Shown here: positions 1-47,683 of the stretch, piece by piece
Layout of the letters: each line of letters opens with the position of its first letter
Position numbering within the stretch: position 1 is the first letter of the stretch
Virus record (IMG/VR): IMGVR_UViG_2882674194_000007
Location: 1 to 64,000 of that record
Length of the DNA: 64,000 bases
DNA from: a virus
Taxonomy: Duplodnaviria; Caudoviricetes
Direction: 5' to 3' (one strand)
The notes under the pieces: generated by a model
Seen by the model: the letters and a program-made list of their open reading frames with translations, nothing else
The model's database searches: none
Told to the model about the DNA's origin: nothing
Position numbers and translations under genes: made by a program

Positions 1-234
1 ATGAAACACAAACCATCATTCCACAACCTACACACCCTATTATCAATACCAGAATCCAGAATACAATTATCAATGTTCACCAGCATACCCATCACCAAGA
101 TAAACAACTGGTTTAGTCCAGATAGTAGGGTAGTACCTAGAGCGGATGAGTTGGTGTTGATGAGTAAATATTTTGGATGTAGTGTGGATTGGTTATTAGA
201 TTTAGATGATGAGAAGGGCATTGGCAAGTTATAA
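1..234 (+). CDS. XRE-family HTH protein (start uncertain at window edge)
   Basis: SRIQLS...INNW...PRADELVLMSKYFGCSVDWLL pattern. Confidence 0.7.
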   Translation: MKHKPSFHNLHTLLSIPESRIQLSMFTSIPITKINNWFSPDSRVVPRADELVLMSKYFGCSVDWLLDLDDEKGIGKL

Positions 235-278
235 AAGAGCCTGACCATTTCTGATCAGGCTCCAATATACTATATGAA

Positions 279-1253
279 TTATAATGATTTAACAATATGG
301 CGCCAGTATTCCAACCGCTGAACCACACTGGTATTTGCCGAGGTGCCCTGTGTAATATATCCCTTATATTCTTCATTTGTATCATAATTAGCAAGGAAAT
401 CTTTGATCGCATCCATAGCCTTTGTCATTCCTTTTTTCTCTTTGATAACCCGACAAATCGCAAAAATAATAAAACTCAGGCTAGTTTTGGGTATCTTCAC
501 ATCTTCATCAAAATTCTCATCAAGTTTATTTAAAGCCTGTTTAATTAATTCAACTTTATCATTCAGGTCTTTATAATTACTATATTCTATGAATTTCTCT
601 TTATCTTTTCTGCTGAAAGAATTAATCTCATAATCTTCGGTTGTTGCACATAACATAAGTATTTCCAAAGCCGTTGCCTGATCCACAGAACTCTTAAACT
701 GAGCGGGCGTCAAAACCTTCTCAAAGAAAGGATGAGACACAATATCAAATATCGCATCACTCATATAATCAGACATATTCGGTGTCATTTTCTGGGTCGT
801 ATTCAAAGGTTTTCCAGAATTGAGCCTGGAGAACATCTCGCGCACATCTTTGTCTGTGTACTCTGTAATCTCATAAACTTGTATCTGAGCATCACAAATT
901 GCATCTTTAACAGGCTGCTCCAACTTTGAAAATTTCAGACCTGCAATTTCATAAGTCATATCTTCAATTTCTACAGGATTCAAATTCTTGTATAGAGAAA
1001 ATCCATCGTTTAGGAAGTCGGAGATAGTTCCAAGCCGCTGTACACCGTCAATTACATATTGCTTACCGCCCTCTGAAATAGTATGGATTGGATTCACAAT
1101 ATAGCCTCTAAGTAATGAGTCTATAAGTAAAGACTTAGATTCTTTGTTCCAGACTCCTTCACGTCTCTGAAGCCTATGCTTCAGTATGATATTACCGCGC
1201 TTTACTTTGTTTGCTAACGTTTGTACAGGCTTATTGCCACTTGATACTTTCAT
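279..1253 (-). CDS. DUF262 (GmrS/ParB-Srx-like) domain protein
   Basis: QR..VW, LIDSLLRG, IDGVQR, FSRLNSG motifs; GGAGG RBS. Confidence 0.85.
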   Translation of the reverse strand: MKVSSGNKPVQTLANKVKRGNIILKHRLQRREGVWNKESKSLLIDSLLRGYIVNPIHTISEGGKQYVIDGVQRLGTISDFLNDGFSLYKNLNPVEIEDMTYEIAGLKFSKLEQPVKDAICDAQIQVYEITEYTDKDVREMFSRLNSGKPLNTTQKMTPNMSDYMSDAIFDIVSHPFFEKVLTPAQFKSSVDQATALEILMLCATTEDYEINSFSRKDKEKFIEYSNYKDLNDKVELIKQALNKLDENFDEDVKIPKTSLSFIIFAICRVIKEKKGMTKAMDAIKDFLANYDTNEEYKGYITQGTSANTSVVQRLEYWRHIVKSL

Positions 1254-1372
1254 TATGCTACCTCCGTTTCAAATTTTATAAAAATTTTGATATTTTTAGA
1301 GTAGCATAATAAGTAAAATTTGTAAATATTTTTCAATAAAAGTGTTTAATATTTTAATCTAAATTTTATTAT

Positions 1373-1400
1373 TTGACAATATTTTCCAATGTGTTACAAT
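1373..1400 (+). promoter_or_regulatory. Sigma-A-type promoter of type I toxin mRNA
   Basis: TTGACA...TGTTACAAT. Confidence 0.6.
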
Positions 1401-1516
1401 ATGATAAAGGGTGCTACCTAAAGTGGTAGGCGGTTAGTCCTCTAATCGTGAGACTGAACTCATGTTTATCTTATAGATATCCTTTCGAGGAAATATTGCG
1501 AAAGGAGGACTGGTAT

Positions 1517-1606
1517 ATGGTTACATACTCGGATATGTTTGCATACACGATAGTAATCTTTACTATTCTTGCGTTTGCGTTTAATTACAAAAACAAAAGA
1601 AAATAA
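1517..1606 (+). CDS. Type I toxin-like small membrane peptide (29 aa, MVTYSDMFAYTIVIFTILAFAFNYKNKRK)
   Basis: AAAGGAGG RBS, single TM helix plus basic tail; 5' UTR GCGGTTAGTCC (1430-1440) pairs with 3' GGACTAACCGC (1661-1671). Confidence 0.8.
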   Translation: MVTYSDMFAYTIVIFTILAFAFNYKNKRK

Positions 1607-1712
1607 CCGCCCTCTCCAAAGTACGGTTATTTTCTAACATTTAGAATCTAATTTAAACTTGGACTAACCGCTTGTCATACGGGTTAGTGCCTTTTGTATT
1701 TGCTTCTTTTTA
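1598..1712 (-). ncRNA. Putative convergent antisense antitoxin RNA
   Basis: - strand promoter TTGACT (1746-1741)/TATACT (1724-1719); terminator AATAACCG...CGGTTATTTT over the toxin stop codon. Confidence 0.65.
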
Positions 1713-1940
1713 CTTGTTAGTATAACACATTCTTGAACGTAGTCAAGTGGTTTATACGTTTTCGCCCTATTTATTGGAGAATTATTTGCTTTCTCCGTTC
1801 AAATCTCCACAATTTTCGGCTTGGAGAAATCCTTACATTATCCTATTTCTTCCTGTGAAAACAGTTGCTATAAAGAAATGGAAGAGCAGTATCACTCTCT
1901 ACTATTTTACCCCAGTCATGGGAAAGTCTTCTTCTCTTTT

Positions 1941-2030
1941 TTATATCAGTACATACAAATAAATGTTCTGTCTATATTTACGTGCTCCTACATGATATAA
2001 TTCCATTACAACATCAAGATTTGATTTCAT
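1941..2030 (-). CDS. Small hypothetical peptide (29 aa, MKSNLDVVMELYHVGARKYRQNIYLYVLI)
   Basis: GGAGGTGG RBS before ATG. Confidence 0.4.
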   Translation of the reverse strand: MKSNLDVVMELYHVGARKYRQNIYLYVLI

Positions 2031-2136
2031 AACCACCTCCAAAACATCTCACTTCCACGGTGAGATAGGCTTGCTCCACACAAGCCACCTAATAGTATGA
2101 TATTTACAACAAAAACAGAATTATCGGAGGTGGCTC

Positions 2137-2355
2137 ATGGAAAACATAATTGAAAGTGTTGTTGAGTGTGGCTCTGCATATGGGATGGTATGTGTATTAG
2201 CAAGCTTTATATTCTTTTACACCACCATTCGATTTGTGTTACCTTACATATATAAAATTATATGTAAAATATGCAACACATTAGTAAAGTACAAAGATGT
2301 CCATGCAAAAGCCAATGTTAAGGATGTCTCATTTGAGACAGAATTACATAGGTAA
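2137..2355 (+). CDS. Small membrane protein (cargo)
   Basis: GGAGGTG RBS, hydrophobic segment, terminator 2359-2390. Confidence 0.7.
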   Translation: MENIIESVVECGSAYGMVCVLASFIFFYTTIRFVLPYIYKIICKICNTLVKYKDVHAKANVKDVSFETELHR

Positions 2356-2399
2356 TTTGGACTACTGGATTCCACTCTGGTAGTCCTTTTATATTTTTA

Positions 2400-2859
2400 T
2401 GTTCGTCTATTCTGGACTCCACTCCAAAATAGATATTCTTATCATCCACGATATGAAAGTAGGAGATAAGGTTCCTACTGAATAATAAACTGTCATATCT
2501 CAGCATAGTACCGAATGTATATTGTTACGGCAGCGTTGCATCTAACCGTCTCTAGCCATTTCATTACAGTGAGGGTTCATCATTATACAAATGAGTATAA
2601 AGAGAGGCTTCCCTGCGGATCTCATTTAGTATCACATTACTGTGACAGGCACAAGATTCCCCGTCCTTGTATTATCACAAAGAGTCTATTCAGACCATAT
2701 CGACCTACATACGAATGAGTATGTATTTTATTTACTATCATGTATCTCATGACAGGCATAGAACCTTCTTGTCTTTGCCACAAGAATCAAAAACTATGCT
2801 GTCGGCACATTCACAACATTTTGGCAGATGTTGATGGCAAACTAATATAATTCAGCCAT
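2400..2859 (-). ncRNA. Group-I-intron-like structured RNA interrupting the tape-measure gene
   Basis: Exon end GTCGGT pairs with GTGCCGAC (2808-2801) with a U-G pair at the junction; P-like GGACGGGGAAT, Q-like ATCCGCAGGGAAG, GAACCCTC; 9-bp closing helix CAGCATAGT/ACTATGCTG. Confidence 0.6.
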
Positions 2860-4851
2860 ACCGACGTTTTTAATGGAGGTAAATAATCCTGCTCCGAGTC
2901 CGATAGATCCAAACAATCCAAGTTTGGAGGTTAATGAGTCAATAACGTTCATAACAGATGTTAAACCGTCAACGACTGTTTTCATGTCATCTCTTTTGAA
3001 GAGATTCTGGGCTACGCCAACAGTGGTTTCTTTAAGACGATTTGTCTTGTATTCTATGGAATCCATAATTACTGACATTTCTTTTTCAGCAGAACCAGCA
3101 CTATTTGCCATGCTATTCATCGCTTTTTCTGCTGCTTCAAAATTATTGATAGTTGCAGCTATAATCTGACCCTGACGTTTACCAGCCAGTGCTTCAAGTA
3201 ATCCTGCTTGATCTTTATCGCTAAGCTGATCATAAATATCACTGATTTCTTTTAATAGCTGATATGTAGATTTATATTCTGTTTTTGTATCATCTGTAAA
3301 TAAACTAATTCCGCCAGGAGTAGAAGCAGTCTTTGTCAGATTTGCAATTTCACCAGATAATTCTTCTACATTTCCAATAAATTCTTCGGTTTCTTCGTCA
3401 TACCCACGTATCCTCATGGATACGGTTTTAAATGCATTACCGACAGACGCATCATCTCTTGTAATTTCTACTGCTGCTGTTTCCAAAGCAATAGTTTCTT
3501 CTAATGTATTATTTGCTTCTTTCATAGCAGAAGATGATCTTGTTAGCATATTAACAATCTCTGCATTGCTAGTAGCGGCAGTATTACCAATAATATTGAT
3601 TTTAGACATGATTCCATCAAGAACTTCGTCAGGATTATCATTGCCGATATCAAATGCTTTCATTACACTGACTAATCCATCTGTAGCTGTGTCAACATTC
3701 ATTCCAGGAGAAATACTTGCAAACATAGAAGAATATTTTGCCATTTTAGATGCAGCTTCTGCGCTTGAATATCCGAGCCGTGACCATGCGGATGCTTGAT
3801 TTATAATTTCAGCAGTAGTGACACCCATCTGTTTAGCAACTTTATTAGCTTCATAATAAAATTTCTCTAGTTCACCATACGTCATGGATGTGGTTTTTCT
3901 TAAATCTACTAAAGCAGTATCAAGTTCCACAATACTTCTAATACCGCCTTTGATAGACTGGATTGCTTTCATAACCAAGAAGGTAGAACTCGTCCAATAA
4001 CTAAACGAACTCATTCCTTCTCTCAAAGTTTGAAAGAATGTCTTACCAAGTTTACCTGTTGCGCGAGCAGCATTTTGAACATCAATAAATCTTTGTTTTA
4101 ATATAGATAACTCTTGATTGCTTAATTTAGCACCTTGTTGGATTTTAGCAAAAATATCTTTTAATTCAGAACCAAACTGAAAAGATTTTACAGTTTTCCC
4201 ATTTTTACTCATAAAATCAACAACCTGATTACGAAATGAAGATATAGCAGAATCTTTTGCTAATTCCGTATTCATAGACCTAACAGAATTTGTAACGGTC
4301 TTGATCTGTTTGTCTAATTCTTTTTCAGATGCAATAAGAGCCTTCTGATGTGCCTCTGTAGGACTATTTGCATAATTATTAGAAGCGGTAGTTAATTGGT
4401 CAAATGCTTTTGACAATTCATTTGTACTGATTCTTGCATTTCCGTTAGCATCAGTCCATTGATTTGTCTTGGCAACCAAAGCATCTACTTTAGATTCATA
4501 AGTTCCGTCACCAATTGAAAGTTGAATTTTATTGACTTGGTTAGCAAGTTTTTGTACTTCTGAATTGACTTTATTACTTGACCTGCTAATACCATCTACT
4601 ATATTTTGCCCGATATTACTACCAATTTGTTGTCCCATTTTAGAATCAATAGCAATATTGGGAATCTTAATCTTTTGACCAAGTGCAGATTCTAATTGTT
4701 TTACAATATTTGATAATGATTTTGGATCAATTTCAACTTGAATCTTTAATTTATCTAGCTGATTTTGAAGTTCTTTAATATTTGCATTGACATTTTCTTT
4801 TGACTTTGTTTCATCTAATTTTGCTTGGAGCAATATCAAAAATTCGTCCAT
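2842..4851 (-). CDS. Tail tape measure protein, TP901-type core; N-terminal part (putative 5' exon ends at 2860)
   Basis: LDTALVDLRKT, WSRLGY, VGNAFKTVSMRIRG, LAGKRQ motifs; GGAGG RBS before MDEF; ends abruptly at SIKNVG-MAELY. Confidence 0.9.
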   Translation of the reverse strand: MDEFLILLQAKLDETKSKENVNANIKELQNQLDKLKIQVEIDPKSLSNIVKQLESALGQKIKIPNIAIDSKMGQQIGSNIGQNIVDGISRSSNKVNSEVQKLANQVNKIQLSIGDGTYESKVDALVAKTNQWTDANGNARISTNELSKAFDQLTTASNNYANSPTEAHQKALIASEKELDKQIKTVTNSVRSMNTELAKDSAISSFRNQVVDFMSKNGKTVKSFQFGSELKDIFAKIQQGAKLSNQELSILKQRFIDVQNAARATGKLGKTFFQTLREGMSSFSYWTSSTFLVMKAIQSIKGGIRSIVELDTALVDLRKTTSMTYGELEKFYYEANKVAKQMGVTTAEIINQASAWSRLGYSSAEAASKMAKYSSMFASISPGMNVDTATDGLVSVMKAFDIGNDNPDEVLDGIMSKINIIGNTAATSNAEIVNMLTRSSSAMKEANNTLEETIALETAAVEITRDDASVGNAFKTVSMRIRGYDEETEEFIGNVEELSGEIANLTKTASTPGGISLFTDDTKTEYKSTYQLLKEISDIYDQLSDKDQAGLLEALAGKRQGQIIAATINNFEAAEKAMNSMANSAGSAEKEMSVIMDSIEYKTNRLKETTVGVAQNLFKRDDMKTVVDGLTSVMNVIDSLTSKLGLFGSIGLGAGLFTSIKNVGMAELY

Positions 4852-4942
4852 ATATGTAATTACCTCCTTTGTTATAGGCATTAAAAATACCGCCGACAAA
4901 GGGCGGTAGTAATTTTCATAGTTATTTAGTTGTTGTAGCGAG

Positions 4943-5629: not shown

Positions 5630-5821
5630 TGTAACATAAGTACCAAAGATATGAGTATCCGCTTATTCATGTGAATTAGATGAAACGGTAGGAGATTAGC
5701 CACCTTCTACTACACAAAATCATAAACACAAATCCTATGTCTGCATATGTTTCTGAGATATAGCAAGAATAAACGGTGAAAATATCTGCTTGACATCAGA
5801 AATGTCAATGATATAATAAGC

Positions 5822-5961
5822 TATAGAGCAGGTTATGAATGTCACAACTTAATCCTTATCTTAGATCTGCAATTTGGCTAATTGCAAACATTTAAGATCA
5901 TTTCAGGAGGTTAGGGAAATGACGAGAGAATAGCATCGTAGAAATACGGTGCTATTTCTTT
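5822..5961 (+). ncRNA. Putative small rod-shaped RNA
   Basis: TTGACA (5790)/TGnTATAAT (5812) promoter, long interrupted hairpin 5841-5923, terminator 5927-5961, no ORF. Confidence 0.55.
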
Positions 5962-9118: not shown

Positions 9119-9514
9119 TCACATCACTTCCTGTTTCTTATTTTCTTCTACAATATCTCTAAGAGTTACTAACGCTTCATCAATAGTATTATCAATCCAC
9201 TTAATCAGGCTTTCCTGATCAGTTACTTTTGATAAAATAGGATAATTTGCAAATAATTCATCAATAACCTGTGCTCGCTTAATTGAGCCAGCCTGTTTCC
9301 ATTCGTCATAATCTTGCTCTGCGTCACTGATTAATTTCAACATAGTTTCCTGAATCTGTTTCTTTGCGATAGCAATTTTCTCTTCATCAGATTTACTGAA
9401 ATATGTAATCGCCTTTTTAGTAATTGCAATTACAAGTCCAATGATTACAATAATAGTAGTCCAGTTTTCGTTTACTAATTCTAAGAAGTTTTTAATACCA
9501 TCTAAAATACTCAT
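9119..9514 (-). CDS. Holin-like protein
   Basis: N-terminal TM, AEQ..GSIKRAQV motif, adjacent to endolysin. Confidence 0.7.
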   Translation of the reverse strand: MSILDGIKNFLELVNENWTTIIVIIGLVIAITKKAITYFSKSDEEKIAIAKKQIQETMLKLISDAEQDYDEWKQAGSIKRAQVIDELFANYPILSKVTDQESLIKWIDNTIDEALVTLRDIVEENKKQEVM

Positions 9515-9525
9515 AATAATTCCTC

Positions 9526-9909
9526 CTAGCCGACCGCTTCAGGATCATTTATATTTTCCGTTACATTACTTTCGATTTGCTGGTACTTTGTATCAAATAT
9601 TTTTATTCCAGCAAGTCCTAATAATTCTGTTCCAAAGAACCCATACACACAAGTAGTCAAAGTAGGGCTTAACTCTGTCATTGTATATTTTTGCAATAAA
9701 ATAGCCGCAACTGTATAGGAGATAATTGCGACAATGGATAGTAACACGATCAGTTTATTAAATTTTAGTGTTAATCGAAACGGCAGAGACATTTTTATAA
9801 TTTCATATTTCAATCTACGCTCATTTCGTTTCTGTTTAGCAACCTTATATTTAACTGCTAATTCTTGCATTTTTTGCTCATGCGTTTTTAGTTTTCGTTT
9901 CAATTTCAT
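9526..9909 (-). CDS. Two-TM membrane protein (lysis module)
   Basis: Two hydrophobic helices. Confidence 0.65.
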   Translation of the reverse strand: MKLKRKLKTHEQKMQELAVKYKVAKQKRNERRLKYEIIKMSLPFRLTLKFNKLIVLLSIVAIISYTVAAILLQKYTMTELSPTLTTCVYGFFGTELLGLAGIKIFDTKYQQIESNVTENINDPEAVG

Positions 9910-9936
9910 TTAAAATCACCACTTGAAATTGTTGTT

Positions 9937-15023: not shown

Positions 15024-15485
15024 TTACACCTTCTTCCTATTTGTAACTAAGTCAAACAACTTGGAATTTCTGTATGATTTATTGATTGCAAGTTGATCAT
15101 TCTCTTTCATAAGTTCAGAACGTAATTCTTTTGCTTTTGTAAGCATATCTTTGTTATCAATCTTATGAAAATCAGCAGTAGACATACGAGCCTTTAATGC
15201 TTCCCTTGTCAAAATAAATTCACTTGTAAGCCATTCTATCGTCATATAGTTACACAACAGAATAAATGTATCATCTGTCAATCGAAAATTAAATTGTCCA
15301 AGTTCATCGTCTCTTTGTGATAGATCCTGTTTGCATGACTGAAATTTAACGATGGCTGGTCTGATATAGCCAATAACAATGTCATAAGCCATTTCTTCTG
15401 ATATATCACAAAAAGAACGATCTTTTATACTGCGGAAAACAGCATCGGCAAGTTCTTTGTATGTAGTATTAGCCATATCCATCAC
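15024..15485 (-). CDS. Putative head-tail adaptor
   Basis: Position after head genes. Confidence 0.5.
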   Translation of the reverse strand: MMDMANTTYKELADAVFRSIKDRSFCDISEEMAYDIVIGYIRPAIVKFQSCKQDLSQRDDELGQFNFRLTDDTFILLCNYMTIEWLTSEFILTREALKARMSTADFHKIDNKDMLTKAKELRSELMKENDQLAINKSYRNSKLFDLVTNRKKV

Positions 15486-15496
15486 CTGCCTTTATA

Positions 15497-16264
15497 TTAT
15501 TCACTTAAAATATCAAAATGTAATTTATCCTGTAACAGTCGAAGTACATTGACATCAACTAATTTTCTTGTCTTATACATCTGTCTTACCTTGCTAATAA
15601 GAATATCTCGCATATTTACACGCAAAGCATCATCTACGACCTTGCTAATTGTAGCCAAATCAGAATTAAAAACTGATTTAAGATTGTTTAGCTTTGCAAC
15701 ATTCTCATATACAGGAGTAAGCCTGAATTTTTTAACAGCACGTTCGTCCATAAGAATAACCAATGGTTTATTAAGGAAATCGCTACTGTAATTATTCATT
15801 TCATTCAGTTCTGCAACCGTCATGTATTGAATTTCACCAATCTGTTTCCATCTGATTACAGCGTTTGTTGTCCTAGATTTATATGTAAGACCGCCAAATG
15901 TAATAGATTTAACTGGAATAGAAGTATCAAGGTCTAATTTATCTTCGTAATCGTCTTTATCGTCAGCGGATTCATCTAAATCGTCAATGGTTTCAGAAAT
16001 AGCATCCAACAAAGACACTGGTTTAGTATCTTCCGATACTTCATCCTGTGATTTTTCTACATCTTTTGGTACATTGTTCTGTTCTACAGTCTGCGTCATA
16101 TCTACGTTTTCTGCTAAATCATCGTCTTCAGCAGAAACAGCAGTATATGCGTCATTTTCTTTCAATTTTGCAATCAATTTATCTTTGCCAATATTACCTA
16201 CTTTAAGACCTCTTGACTTTGCTAATTCTTTTAATTCGTCAAGTTCCATTTTTGTATAATCCAT
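15497..16264 (-). CDS. Head-module protein with N-terminal Rho-N/SAP-like helix-extension-helix
   Basis: ELKELAKSRGLK...KDKLI. Confidence 0.6.
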   Translation of the reverse strand: MDYTKMELDELKELAKSRGLKVGNIGKDKLIAKLKENDAYTAVSAEDDDLAENVDMTQTVEQNNVPKDVEKSQDEVSEDTKPVSLLDAISETIDDLDESADDKDDYEDKLDLDTSIPVKSITFGGLTYKSRTTNAVIRWKQIGEIQYMTVAELNEMNNYSSDFLNKPLVILMDERAVKKFRLTPVYENVAKLNNLKSVFNSDLATISKVVDDALRVNMRDILISKVRQMYKTRKLVDVNVLRLLQDKLHFDILSE

Positions 16265-16266
16265 GT

Positions 16267-16476
16267 TTATAATTCCTCCATCTTTGATTTTTCTTTTAAC
16301 TCATTCCAAGTGTTAATTGTCTTATTTAATTCTTCTGATTTCTCAAAAGTGAAATAAGTCAAATTATTAGTCTTGTTTTTAGACTTTTTAATGTAATTAA
16401 AACCTTGTGATTTTAAGAAATGATATAAGTTAAAAGAGTAGCAATGGAAAAATGAATTTTTCTGTTCTTTTTCCAT
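16267..16476 (-). CDS. Small DUF5659-like protein
   Basis: FHCYS..L..FL...GF.Y...YF.FEKSEEL...W. Confidence 0.65.
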   Translation of the reverse strand: MEKEQKNSFFHCYSFNLYHFLKSQGFNYIKKSKNKTNNLTYFTFEKSEELNKTINTWNELKEKSKMEEL

Positions 16477-24539: not shown

Positions 24540-24607
24540 AACACATAGAGAGAATCAAACTCCCATTATTCGAGTTGGCGAATGTCTTACAATTAGACGA
24601 TATGTGT
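24540..24607 (-). ncRNA. tRNA-like RNA with 6-nt anticodon loop
   Basis: ACACATA/TATGTGT acceptor, GTCT/AGAC D stem, ATTCG-CCAACT-CGAAT, GGGAG-TTTGATT-CTCTC T arm. Confidence 0.6.
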
Positions 24608-29770: not shown

Positions 29771-29864
29771 TTTCAATGCGCTGCGCAAGCCATATCAGGA
29801 ATCGAACCTGTAATTTCACCGTTAAGTGATGTTATGTCCATTTAACTAATGACACGCATTGAAA
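29771..29864 (-). ncRNA. tRNA-like RNA with shortened anticodon loop inside a 10-bp closing stem
   Basis: GTTA/TAAC D stem, TCAC-TTAACG-GTGA, CAGG-TTCGATT-CCTG; flanks TTTCAATGCG/CGCATTGAAA. Confidence 0.55.
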
Positions 29865-34497: not shown

Positions 34498-34580
34498 TTG
34501 CTGAAAGCACAGGAGTCGAACCTGCTATCACAAAGGTTATGAGCCTTGTATGGTTTATATATCCGTTCCACTCGCCAGCA
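34498..34580 (-). tRNA. Degenerate tRNA with CAU anticodon (Met or Ile2)
   Basis: Loop CTCATAA, GCAGG-TTCGACT-CCTGT; long D loop, acceptor mismatch and extra nucleotides. Confidence 0.6.
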
Positions 34581-34581
34581 G

Positions 34582-34656
34582 TTGGGAATCAGGGACTTGA
34601 ACCCTGGACAAACATGCTTTATAAGAACACCGCTCTACCAACTGAGCTAATTCCCA
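34582..34656 (-). tRNA. tRNA-Ile(UAU)
   Basis: TGGGAAT/ATTCCCA acceptor, GCTC/GAGC D stem, loop CT-TAT-AA (anticodon 34621-34623), CAGGG-TTCAAGT-CCCTG, A73. Confidence 0.85.
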
Positions 34657-46217: not shown

Positions 46218-46224
46218 ATACTTG

Positions 46225-47015
46225 TAAGGAACACAAGGGAATATAAATCGGTATCACGGCAGTGTCAATAAGACCTGATACATTCTCAACATGGCAGCGT
46301 CAATAAGTCCAGGAGCGATAAAAAGAAAAATCCCAGTTCCAAACGAAACCGGGAAATTTCAAGTAAGTGTGTAAAACTCTTACCCTAAGCAAGTAGAGTA
46401 TAACACAATTCTTGATAATCTGTCAATCGGCAGAAATTTCCCAAAACAAAGTAACTATTAACGTCCTGTCAAGTGGAGTGCTAACAGGATCGTAACTAAG
46501 GCAAAGCAACAAGAGATTGCAAACGAGGTTAGAGAAAAGATAATTGATTCATTAAATTTCCGCAACCTAACGGGAAAACGTGACAGATAGCAGCGTAAAA
46601 ATGTTATCCGTGTTGACTGGACACGCTGACTACATCGGAGACGTGATAGTTCATATCATATCAGACGTAGCAGGGAATACCATCCCAAACCAGAAAATCT
46701 ATGAATATGTGTGAATGCGAGTAGGCAGAAACAAGAGTTTTGCGGTGACTGATTCTGAAACCGTGACCTGTGGGGTGTGGTAGCCGTAACGGGAACGAGA
46801 GACAATCTACTATAATATAGATGGCTCTTTTGATGATAATTTATCGCTGTAGAGGATGGACGGGGAGAAAACACAAAACGATAGACTATATAAAATGGTA
46901 GTTGTAAACCGTGGTTATGGAAGGCTGAGAAATACGTCTTCCAACCGCTAATAAGCGGTATATAAATATACATAAGAACCTTTAGAGAGTGTCAAGAACC
47001 TTTGGCACTCTCTTT
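46225..47015 (+). ncRNA. Putative large structured RNA or leader (~790 nt)
   Basis: Promoter, no + ORF, GC-richer with many hairpins, terminator AGAGAGTGTCAA...TTGGCACTCTCTTTT. Confidence 0.55.
46320..46390 (-). ncRNA. Putative short antisense RNA
   Basis: TTGACA (46426-46421)/TGnTATACT (46402-46397), terminator TCCCGGTT...AACTGGGA plus U tract. Confidence 0.55.
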
Positions 47016-47024
47016 TATATTAAA

Positions 47025-47652
47025 AGCGGTCAACTGCTTTTCAAAAGAAATGTGATGTTCAAGCGAGAAGGAAAAGAGAAATAAGTATTACATCCTGTAA
47101 GGGCTGCCCATGTGGTCATAAGTGCATATATCAGGCACAAGGAAAAGTGATAACCCGTGACACAAGCTTTTTTACATTTGAAAGATTGCACGTATAAAGA
47201 AGGAAGTAAAAATGTAGCGCAAGATAAGGGCGTTAAACTTTCAATCGCTCAAGATCGGCAATGCGATTAATAAATTGTGCCGGCATTGTGTGAAAGCAGG
47301 TATCACACTTACAATGATTACCGCCACAAAGATTTGAGTGTAATAAAATCTGAAAAGTCAGTAAAAGGCGTGGGACTACTGGAGAAGATAATAAACACGA
47401 CAGGCGAACCCCTGAAAAGGAAGAAGGTTATACTATAACTGTAAACTTAAAAAGCTGCTGTCTGGATGCCTGACATATACGGCATATTACATAATTTTAT
47501 TATTTATCATGCCCATAAAAACAGAATCAAACGTGAGGCGGTGCGGAAAGCTGGTGAACCACTCAATACAATGAGGACATAGCCATAAAGCCGGATGCAT
47601 TTAGCCATATCCTTTGAAAAGTCTCTTTTGTGGGCATGGATAAGTAATAAAA
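47025..47652 (+). ncRNA. Second putative large structured RNA region
   Basis: ORF-free, multiple hairpins, ~27-bp stem 47496-47521/47626-47652. Confidence 0.45.
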
Positions 47653-47683
47653 GATATGATAATATAGATGTGGAGGAAAAAAT

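What the first reader, a model, noticed from the sequence alone, without database searches (positions are those of the whole stretch)
1..2865. Tape-measure gene split by a group-I-intron-like RNA that appears to enclose cargo genes
Seen: the TMP frame stops after ~669 aa at SIKNVG-MAELY, far short of SPbeta-type TMPs (YomI is over 2000 aa). On the - strand the exon end GUCGGU|AU (2865-2858) pairs over 8 bp with GUGCCGAC (2808-2801), placing a U-G wobble exactly at the codon boundary after Gly. This is the group I 5' splice-site signature. Downstream lie P-like GGACGGGGAAU (2666-2656), a P5 stem with GUAA tetraloop, Q-like AUCCGCAGGGAAG (2620-2608) and GAACCCUC (P6 partner). Extra helices occupy the junctions, and I cannot assign a canonical P7, P9 or terminal G. 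No TMP continuation appears in the remaining ~2.4 kb, which holds a type I TA, DUF262, an HTH and small genes. Inference: a derived giant or split (trans-splicing) group I ribozyme lets an essential virion gene act as a cargo hotspot. Group I introns in phage genes are known; this cargo-bearing atypical form would be new to me.
Basis: partly seen in the sequence, partly recalled or inferred. Interest (0 to 1): 0.9.

Follow-up and report, generated by a model that had tools for sequence, protein, structure and literature searches.

The report
Giant cargo-carrying intron in tape-measure gene
A prophage's essential tail-length gene is split by a 7.5-kb group I (self-splicing type) intron whose ribozyme occupies only the first ~420 bases and whose long tail holds about a dozen defence- and regulator-like genes, so an essential gene seems to double as a safe storage bay; splicing is inferred from comparison, not yet seen in RNA.

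Summary
The tape-measure (TMP) frame stops 5 codons after KNVG. The missing 1,858-aa C-terminal half lies on contig C91, which overlaps the window's contig by 54 nt. The insert is therefore one 7,502-nt piece. Its first ~420 nt (window 2859-2438, minus strand) fold as a canonical group I core. A contiguous guide sequence (2818-2801) pairs with the last 6 nt of exon 1, with U·G at the splice site, and with the first 12 nt of the distant exon 2. The insert ends in G, preceded by 8 nt that pair with J7/9 (P9.0). In relatives the insert at this site ranges from 741 nt to 10,378 nt. P1, P10, P9.0 and the core helices all covary: 87% of cells paired against 30-43% in slid controls, and 44 of 79 pairs have compensatory changes. 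A covariance model built without window-type sequences finds the window core (E 5e-11). Rfam's group I model does not detect it. The cargo includes DUF262/NsnA-like, NYN, CI-like and toxin-like genes. No RNA data could be obtained, so splicing across 7.5 kb is inferred. This scan has noted the same phenomenon on other genomes. I class it as a new variant of a known kind, closest to IStrons and the hexacoral ND5-717 intron.

The parts
2860..4851 (-). Exon 1: N-terminal part of the tape-measure protein (664 aa from the SD-preceded ATG to Gly of KNVG; the ORF is open from TTG at 4899)
   Evidence: PF10145 PhageMin_Tail, E 1e-17. Homologues of 2,600-3,200 aa read straight through this point.
1..2859 (-). 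5' 2,859 nt of the intron. It continues through 152 nt to the contig end and into contig C91, for a total of 7,502 nt. The last intron base (omega-G) is C91 23070 and exon 2 starts at C91 23069.
   Evidence: exact 54-nt overlap of the contig ends, unique in the genome
2438..2859 (-). Ribozyme core P1-P9.1: P2 2786-2766; P2.1 2753-2737; P3 2705-2702 with 2557-2554; P4 2663-2660 with 2619-2616; P5 2655-2651 with 2625-2621 and a GUAA hairpin at 2646-2631; P6 2614-2611 with 2575-2572; P7 2565-2560 with 2518-2514; P8 2549-2527; J8/7 2523-2519; P9 2503-2490; P9.1 2470-2465 with 2443-2438
2801..2818 (-). Internal guide sequence. 2806-2801 (GCCGAC) pairs with exon 1 GUCGGU. 2818-2807 pairs with the first 12 nt of exon 2 (P10, 11/12).
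2860..2865 (-). P1 5' strand (last 6 nt of exon 1). U2860 forms the U·G wobble at the 5' splice site.
2504..2511 (-). J7/9 strand of P9.0 (GUACUAUG). It pairs over 8 bp with the 8 nt that precede omega-G on C91.
2507..2619 (-). Match to covariance model R1 (P6-P7-P8 core), built only from relatives of the other subclass
   Evidence: 54.6 bits, E 4.8e-11, the only hit in the window; the only hit in the genome
2137..2355 (+). Cargo: 72-aa membrane-type protein, antisense to the intron (possible type I toxin or holin-like). It is conserved in relatives L003, L006 and L133.
   Evidence: no family match
2359..2386 (+). Intrinsic terminator of the 72-aa gene (plus strand only)
1448..1606 (+). Cargo: small hydrophobic ORF (52 aa as listed), antisense; function untested
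279..1253 (-). Cargo: DUF262/GmrSD_N protein (324 aa), sense strand. Best PADLOC match is NsnA. It is the most widely shared cargo gene in relatives.
   Evidence: (NsnA E 3.5e-34)
1..234 (+). Cargo: 77-aa HTH regulator, antisense
   Evidence: PHROG transcriptional regulator or repressor families

Best explanation
The tape-measure gene of this SPbeta-like Lachnospiraceae prophage is interrupted, exactly after the Gly codon of KNVG, by one 7,502-nt group I intron.

Anatomy:
- The complete catalytic core (P1-P9.1) lies in the first ~420 nt.
- The rest is a long 3' tail that has accumulated about 12 genes on both strands: a 72-aa toxin-like gene, a DUF262/NsnA-like gene, two HTH/CI-type repressors, a four-gene operon of unknowns, an NYN nuclease-like gene and an antisense zinc-ribbon gene.
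- The tail ends in a short module: a hairpin, 8 nt that pair with J7/9 (P9.0), and the terminal G.

Proposed mechanism (inferred):
- During late transcription the guide sequence holds the end of exon 1 (P1, U·G wobble).
- After the first step it holds the first 12 nt of exon 2 (P10).
- The extended P9.0 docks the distant terminal G.
- The ribozyme then ligates ...KNVG to IFRTIT..., giving an mRNA for a TMP of about 2,520 aa.
- The cargo genes are expressed from their own promoters in the lysogen without harming the essential gene.

Shown: the anatomy, the homology, the covariation, and the continuity of the two exons. Inferred: that the RNA actually splices, and that it does so in cis.
For: 1. 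The split is real and contiguous.
- The C-terminal half of the TMP (1,859-aa ORF) is at C91 23072-17496 (-).
- C91's last 54 nt are identical to C133's first 54 nt, and this 54-mer occurs nowhere else in the genome.

2. The junction is precise.
- Uninterrupted homologues read KNIG-IFK.., KNVG-LFK.. and RNAG-LFTTID.. with no gap.
- This matches exon 1 ending at U2860 and exon 2 starting right after the G of the terminal AUG.

3. The guide sequence is contiguous.
- P1 is 6/6 with U·G, and P10 is 11/12.
- It is the unique best site in 64 kb on both strands, and 0 of 2,000 shuffles reach it.

4. Helices that involve the far end covary.
- P1: GUCGGU/GCCGAC, GUUGGU/GCCAAC and ACAGGU/GCCUGU. Where the exon ends in C, the guide has A, so a C·A wobble replaces U·G.
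- P10: exon 2 AUAUUCA pairs with UGAAUAU, and exon 2 AUGUUUA with UAAAUAU.
- P9.0: GUAC/GUAU, GUAC/GUAC, AUAC/GUAU and GAAC/GUUC.
- All 12 known 3' ends are G.

5. The core has canonical group I topology, including the P3/P7 pseudoknot.
- On 11 relatives, 87.1% of cells are paired against 30-43% when the partners are slid.
- 44 of 79 pairs have changes on both sides.
- The covariation score is 0.526 against 0.06-0.10, and 0 of 500 shuffles reach it.

6. The window belongs to this family.
- Model R1 was built without window-type sequences. It hits 2619-2507 at E 4.8e-11, the only hit in the window and in the genome.
- It hits every class-A relative about 210-260 nt after the break.
- The window-type P4 covaries (CGGG/UCCG against CUGG/UCAG), and its peripheral hairpins covary among four phages.

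7. The intron forms a size series at the same site.
- Sizes seen are 741, 3,030, 3,351, 3,999, 4,151, 4,301, 4,624, 5,349 and 10,378 nt.
- The 10,378-nt copy has a window-type core and lies on one contiguous 792-kb scaffold.
- The cargo is therefore an expansion of an ordinary intron.

8. Exon 2 has no Shine-Dalgarno sequence, whereas exon 1 has a strong one.

9. All 18 near-identical IMG/VR contigs of the L011 type keep the interruption.
Against: - There is no RNA evidence.
- Rfam RF00028 gives no hit at E<=10 on the window, on L011, on L007 or on the 741-nt minimal member.
- The window's own P3 is only 4 bp with two G·U pairs. Its P5 has two G·U pairs. The fifth pair of P7 is unclear.
- My P7 model places the bulged A on the P3 side, unlike Tetrahymena, so the G-binding pair is not pinned down.
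- A sense-strand terminator-like hairpin sits upstream of the NYN gene, both here (L001 8264-8242) and in L011. Several cargo genes are antisense. Uninterrupted 7.5-kb transcription is therefore not assured.
- The last three intron bases are AUG in most cargo-bearing members, so an independent start of the C-terminal half cannot be excluded.
- An earlier, related finding of this scan was later priced at low odds for the same lack of RNA data.
Confidence: 0.6

Rival explanations
1. Same ribozyme, but splicing occurs in trans. Late transcription from exon 1 ends inside the island. A second transcript, for example one starting at the NYN gene, carries the 3' tail and exon 2. The two RNAs associate through P9.0 (8 bp) and P10 (12 bp), and the exons are then ligated.
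For: A terminator-like hairpin on the sense strand lies just upstream of the NYN gene, both here and in the distant relative L011. Cargo genes lie on both strands. P9.0 and P10 are unusually long in cargo-bearing members (8 + 12 bp here) but shorter in the 741-nt member (4 + 7-9 bp).
Against: No conserved promoter was identified for a 3' fragment, and promoter-like hits do not exceed the shuffled expectation. No natural bacterial or phage trans-splicing group I intron is known to me (own knowledge). IStrons splice as single units.
Confidence: 0.15
2. The intron is an evolutionary relic that no longer splices. The TMP is made as two polypeptides, with the C-terminal half starting at the AUG formed by the intron's last three bases, or this prophage is simply tail-defective.
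For: Most cargo-bearing members end in AUG in frame with exon 2, and gene callers start the C-terminal ORF there. Rfam does not recognise the core. The window's P3 and P5 are weak.
Against: There is no Shine-Dalgarno sequence before that AUG, in a phage whose other genes have one. L112 and L121 end in ACG rather than AUG, yet keep P9.0 and P10. Compensatory changes in P1, P10 and P9.0 across members with 29-90% TMP identity would not be maintained in a dead ribozyme. The break persists in dozens of otherwise intact phage contigs.
Confidence: 0.15
3. The 7.5 kb is a DNA element (integrative island or transposon) that is excised from DNA by a recombinase before late gene expression, as skin-type intervening elements are.
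For: The inserted segment is large, variable and gene-rich. A 5-nt GTATG occurs at both boundaries.
Against: None of the cargo ORFs scanned matches a recombinase, integrase or transposase family. The boundary signals are RNA-type: a wobble pair at the junction, and guide complementarity to both exons that covaries. A 741-nt member has the same boundaries. The interruption is retained in IMG/VR viral contigs.
Confidence: 0.03
4. The phage's own attachment site lies inside the TMP gene, so the two halves sit at opposite prophage ends and the DNA between them is host chromosome.
For: The window starts 152 nt from a contig end, and the two halves are on different contigs.
Against: The contigs overlap directly. 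In relatives both halves lie 0.7-10.4 kb apart on one contig in the same orientation. The intervening DNA is AT-rich phage-like cargo shared between phages.
Confidence: 0.01

Closest known systems
IStrons (CdISt1, BcISt1; Tourasse, Stabell and Kolsto 2014, PMC4227781)
   Same: A Firmicute group I intron with the ribozyme at the 5' end and a foreign gene-bearing segment fused to its 3' end. It splices as one unit, which makes insertion into coding genes harmless.
   Different: IStron cargo is an IS200/IS605-type or other IS element with transposase genes. The elements are about 2-3 kb and scattered in many genes. Here no transposase is present. The cargo is a changeable island of up to about 12 genes (0.7-10.4 kb), always at one codon of a phage TMP gene. 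The core is not detected by Rfam and I could not assign it to IA2.
Group I introns TMP-IVS1/2/3 in tape-measure genes of Bacillus cereus-group prophages (Tourasse and Kolsto 2008, PMC2504315), and the HNH-HEG intron in the TMP gene of vibriophage ICP1, shown spliced by RNA-seq and RT-PCR (PMC10448857)
   Same: A group I-type intron lies in frame inside a phage TMP gene, with a stop codon soon after the 5' splice site. Different intron types have adapted to the same site through a shared guide sequence.
   Different: Those introns are small: a core alone, or a core plus one homing endonuclease gene. This one carries no recognisable homing endonuclease and has kilobases of unrelated cargo.
ND5-717 giant group I intron of hexacoral mitochondria (Chi et al. 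2019, PMC6545197)
   Same: A group I intron of 18-19 kb that encloses many functional genes and is still removed at the RNA level.
   Different: It is organellar. The cargo sits in the P8 loop and consists of essential mitochondrial genes. In corallimorpharians it is removed by back-splicing of a permuted precursor. Here the cargo lies after P9.1 in the 3' tail, it is accessory and defence-like and variable between strains, and the host is a bacteriophage.
Phage T4 nrdD (sunY) intron (from my own knowledge, not checked here)
   Same: The ORF lies downstream of the catalytic core, so the 3' splice site is far from the core and must be brought back by P9.0 and P10.
   Different: That intron has one homing endonuclease ORF of under 1 kb, not a multi-gene island.

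Membership tests
Group I intron | P1 helix between the end of the 5' exon and an internal guide sequence, with a U·G wobble at the splice site | tested here: met
   GUCGGU/GCCGAC with U2860·G2806. There are three compensatory P1 variants in relatives, plus a C·A wobble substitution.
Group I intron | P10: the guide sequence next to the P1 strand pairs with the start of the 3' exon | tested here: met
   Window 2818-2807 against the first 12 nt of exon 2 on C91: 11/12. It covaries in L057. It is the unique best site in the window.
Group I intron | Terminal G (omega-G), and P9.0 pairing of the preceding bases with J7/9 | tested here: met
   12 of 12 known 3' ends are G. P9.0 is 4-8 bp with compensatory changes, and 8 bp here.
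Group I intron | Conserved core topology P3-P4-P5-P6-P7-P3'-P8-P7' with the P3/P7 pseudoknot, supported by covariation | tested here: met
   (87% paired; 44 pairs with changes on both sides; slid controls 30-43%). The window threads onto it. The window's own P3 is weak (4 bp, two G·U).
Group I intron | Guanosine-binding site in P7 (a specific G-C pair next to a bulged base) | tested here: inconclusive
   P7 has invariant G-C pairs flanking a bulged A. The bulge lies on the P3 side, and the binding pair cannot be named from sequence alone.
Group I intron | Match to the curated covariance model Rfam RF00028 (Intron_gpI) | tested here: not met
   No hit at E<=10 on the window, L007, L011 or the minimal L057. 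The model also failed on a second, typical-looking intron in L007 that has a 383-aa ORF inserted, so I weigh this as low sensitivity.
Group I intron | GTP-dependent self-splicing with exon ligation | not testable with these tools
This needs RT-PCR or an in vitro assay.
IStron | IS element with transposase gene(s) fused to the 3' part of the intron | tested here: not met
   No transposase family appears in any of the cargo ORFs scanned here. One relative (L003) has an IS110 inside its cargo, apparently as a passenger.
Mobile (homing) group I intron | Intron-encoded homing endonuclease (LAGLIDADG, GIY-YIG, HNH, His-Cys, PD-(D/E)xK) | tested here: not met
   No such domain was found. The conserved DUF262 gene and the conserved antisense zinc-ribbon gene are candidates of unknown role.
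   The 72-aa membrane-type ORF with its terminator is conserved in relatives, but it matches no family and no antitoxin RNA was sought.

The most novel reading that the evidence does not exclude
A family of bona fide self-splicing group I introns in SPbeta-like gut (Lachnospiraceae) phages has turned one codon of the essential tape-measure gene into a general-purpose slot for accessory genes. The ribozyme tolerates 0.7 to over 10 kb of swappable, two-stranded, defence-like cargo in its 3' tail. It finds its far-away 3' splice site through an extended, co-evolving P9.0/P10 'address'. Splicing, in cis or in trans, may couple tail production to transcription through the island.
Probability: 0.6. 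Interest if true: 0.85.

Novelty: new variant of a known kind. Interest (0 to 1): 0.78.

Why it matters
- If the RNA splices, this is the largest and most gene-rich group I intron known to me in a phage or bacterium, and a new kind of hotspot for accessory genes. The island sits inside an essential virion gene and is made harmless by a ribozyme rather than by intergenic placement.
- It would explain why many gut-phage tape-measure genes are annotated as two ORFs with 'morons' between them.
- It gives a natural system for asking how a ribozyme locates a splice site kilobases away.
- It suggests a selfish logic: cargo cannot be deleted imprecisely without killing the phage.
- It matters for annotation. 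TMP length, and so predicted tail length, is underestimated about fourfold here if the halves are not joined.

Tried and rejected
- Rfam scans at permissive thresholds on the window, L007, L011, L057 and three whole loci found no group I hit. The only gathering-level hit was an unrelated group II fragment at the end of L006.
- blastn of the core against 50,697 phage records found no match.
- dN/dS on exon 2 between three phages was saturated (pS 0.6-0.8) and uninformative.
- A group II intron was rejected: there is no GUGYG start and no reverse-transcriptase gene. The only signal was an E=6.6 domain-V-like hit at 233-268.
- An intein or split intein was rejected: stop codons follow 5 codons after the junction.
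- A prophage attachment site inside the TMP was rejected.
- Recombinase-mediated excision was rejected because no recombinase matched among the cargo ORFs scanned.
- My first guess that GGUCU (2696-2692) was the P4 strand was wrong. It is a local hairpin (GGUCU-GAAU-AGACU), and P4 is CGGG at 2663-2660.
- The automated guide search picked a spurious site in L032 because its P10 strand has one extra base.

Full report
**What is in the window.** On the minus strand an ORF with a Pfam PhageMin_Tail domain runs from 4899/4851 to 2842. It ends ...SIKNVG followed by MAELY and a stop. The window lies 152 nt from the left end of contig C133 of a 4.8-Mb, 155-contig Lachnospiraceae assembly. Homologous tape-measure proteins fall into two sets. 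Many are 2,600-3,200 aa long and read straight through this point (KNIG-LFKTT.., KNIG-IFKKE.., RNAG-LFTTID..). Many others stop 0-40 codons after KN[VIFT][GDA], with unrelated tails. That pattern marks an insertion at one conserved codon.

**The missing half.** A tblastn search with the C-terminal parts of full-length relatives found one locus in the same genome. It is C91 23072-17496 (-), an open 1,859-aa frame starting M-IFRTITDD.., followed by tail genes. No Shine-Dalgarno sequence precedes its ATG, whereas the N-terminal part has AAAGAGGTGA. The last 54 nt of C91 equal the first 54 nt of C133, and this 54-mer occurs nowhere else in the genome. The contigs therefore abut, and the insert is 3,011 + 4,545 - 54 = 7,502 nt.

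**Boundary signals.** The twelve bases immediately 5' of that guide (2818-2807) pair with the first twelve bases of the distant exon 2 (11/12). This is the classical contiguous P10-P1 guide of group I introns. The 18-nt match is the single best among about 128,000 positions of the window, and 0 of 2,000 shuffles reached it. The insert ends in G. The eight bases before that G pair with GUACUAUG (2511-2504), the J7/9 segment right after P7. This is an extended P9.0. Splicing at these sites gives KNVG-IFRTIT.., which is collinear with the uninterrupted homologues.

**Relatives.** I collected about 130 loci from IMG/VR, GTDB genomes and metagenomes.
- Roughly 85 of 119 mapped junctions are interrupted at this codon.
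- At least three unrelated core types occupy the site. The window belongs to 'class A'.
- Where both exons lie on one contig, the insert is 741, 3,030, 3,351, 3,999, 4,151, 4,301, 4,483, 4,624 or 5,349 nt.
- It is 10,378 nt in Lachnospiraceae bacterium A4, which has a window-type core and lies on a contiguous 792-kb scaffold.
- The 741-nt member (L057) is an ordinary-sized intron: a core of about 395 nt, an antisense zinc-ribbon ORF, and a short 3' module. The large versions are therefore expansions of a normal intron between P9.1 and the 3' module.

**Covariation.**
- P1 changes in step: GUUGGU/GCCAAC and ACAGGU/GCCUGU. Where the exon ends in C the guide has A, so a C·A wobble replaces U·G rather than a Watson-Crick pair.
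- P10 follows exon 2: AUGUUUA with UAAAUAU in L057.
- P9.0 follows the 3' end: GAAC/GUUC, GUAC/GUAC and AUAC/GUAU.
- For the core I aligned 11 class-A sequences and imposed P1, P2, P2.1, P3, P4, P5/5a/5b, P6/6a, P7, P8 and P9 with the P3/P7 pseudoknot. The result was 87.1% of cells paired, against 30-43% with the partners slid. 44 of 79 pairs have changes on both sides. The covariation score is 0.526 against 0.06-0.10, and 0 of 500 shuffles reach it.
- Conserved joiners (J3/4 AAUAU, J4/5 AA, a UCACAGA-like J6/7-P7 segment, J8/7 AAUAU) sit where group I introns have them.

**Does the window's own copy belong?** A covariance model of P6-P7-P8 was built only from the other subclass. It hits window 2619-2507 (-) at 54.6 bits, E 4.8e-11. 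This is the only hit in the window and in the whole genome, and the model finds every class-A relative at the expected offset. The window subclass (window, L006, L072, L043/L133, and more distantly L054 and L075) differs in three ways: it has two extra hairpins after J3/4, it has a shortened P5 extension capped by GUAA, and its P4 covaries with the L054/L075 version (CGGG/UCCG against CUGG/UCAG). Its peripheral hairpins show compensatory changes among four phages. The weak points are P3 (4 bp, two G·U), P5 (two G·U) and an unclear fifth pair in P7.

**Cargo, in intron orientation.**
- A 72-aa membrane-type gene (antisense) with its own terminator, and a small hydrophobic ORF.
- A DUF262/GmrSD_N gene, whose best defence-model match is NsnA.
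- An HTH gene.
- On C91: an 87-aa ORF, a CI/LexA-type S24 repressor (antisense), four ORFs of unknown function, an NYN-domain gene (HEC-09-like), and the antisense zinc-ribbon gene next to the 3' splice site.
- No recombinase, transposase, reverse transcriptase or known homing endonuclease was found.
- Relatives carry different sets, with DUF262, NYN and the zinc-ribbon gene recurring. Cores and cargo have recombined: L003 has a class-B core with the window's toxin-like and DUF262 genes, and L021 has a class-B core with the L011-type 3' half.

**What remains open.**
- Rfam's group I model detects none of these. It also missed a second, classical-looking intron with a 383-aa ORF in L007, so I read this as low sensitivity.
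- A sense-strand terminator-like hairpin upstream of the NYN gene is present both here and in L011, which keeps trans-splicing or antitermination in play.
- The terminal AUG keeps a two-polypeptide model alive. The missing ribosome-binding site, the ACG-ending members, and the maintained covariation of P1, P10 and P9.0 argue against that model.

**Comparison with what is known.**
- Group I introns in phage TMP genes are published: B. cereus-group prophages, and ICP1 with RNA proof of splicing.
- IStrons have the same 5'-core/3'-cargo layout and splice as a unit.
- Coral mitochondria have 18-19-kb gene-filled group I introns.
- I found no paper describing a phage group I intron that carries a multi-gene, defence-like island.
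- Other agents of this scan have reported the same phenomenon on other genomes. I used their literature leads and checked the papers myself.

**Verdict.** This is a real group I intron and a new variant of a known kind. The odds are about 0.6 that it is spliced in cis, and about 0.75 that its ribozyme rejoins the gene in some way.

Noticed in passing
L007 3817-5331 and ~15115-16378 (G187 = MGBC136627); L032 just upstream of 10001: Relatives carry further introns in the same TMP gene. One lies after MRIRG (383-aa ORF; P1 GAGGU/GCCUC; R- and S-like elements; ends in G). Another lies after ..FNH (132-aa ORF). The window's TMP is unbroken at both sites.
   Followed up: partly
L003, L021, L023, L034-36, L053, L056 and others (class B); L037-39, L044, L049, L059, L068 and others (class C): At least three unrelated ribozyme core types occupy the same KNxG codon. 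Class B shares the P10 guide UGUUUUGAAUAU and the ...AUAGUAUG 3' end with class A. Cores and cargo modules have recombined between classes.
   Followed up: partly
L001 7160-7516 (+), i.e. C91 23159-23515; L057 10992-11279 (-); L011 ~9433-9920 (-): An antisense zinc-ribbon ORF (95-190 aa) lies next to the 3' splice site in nearly all members, including the 741-nt minimal intron. It has no Pfam or PHROG family. It could be a maturase-like or mobility factor.
   Followed up: partly
C91, ~15-40 nt upstream of the 3' splice site; the same position in L011, L023, L032, L112 and L133: A hairpin has a covarying stem (GUGUAU/AUACAC, ACAAGC/GCUUGU, ACAAGU/ACUUGU, UGUAUAAU/AUUAUACA) and a CCACA or CAAACA loop. 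It may be part of the 3' splice-site module, or the leader of the antisense zinc-ribbon gene.
   Followed up: no
The pairing is 8/9 in L006 and absent in the other subclass. It may be a placeholder for P9.0 until the distant 3' end is transcribed.
   Followed up: partly
L001 8264-8242 (-) and L011 7629-7653 (+): A sense-strand terminator-like hairpin lies immediately upstream of the NYN cargo gene in two distant relatives. This bears on cis- versus trans-splicing.
   Followed up: no
L006 20415-20498: A group II intron fragment (Rfam D1-D4-6, 60.7 bits) lies inside the cargo of a relative, cut off by the contig end.
   Followed up: no
window 5790-5961, 24540-24607, 29771-29864, 34498-34656, 46224-47655: Other first-stage notes on this window describe an sRNA candidate, tRNA-like elements, a tRNA-Ile(UAU), and a 1.4-kb structured leader. 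I did not examine them.
   Followed up: no
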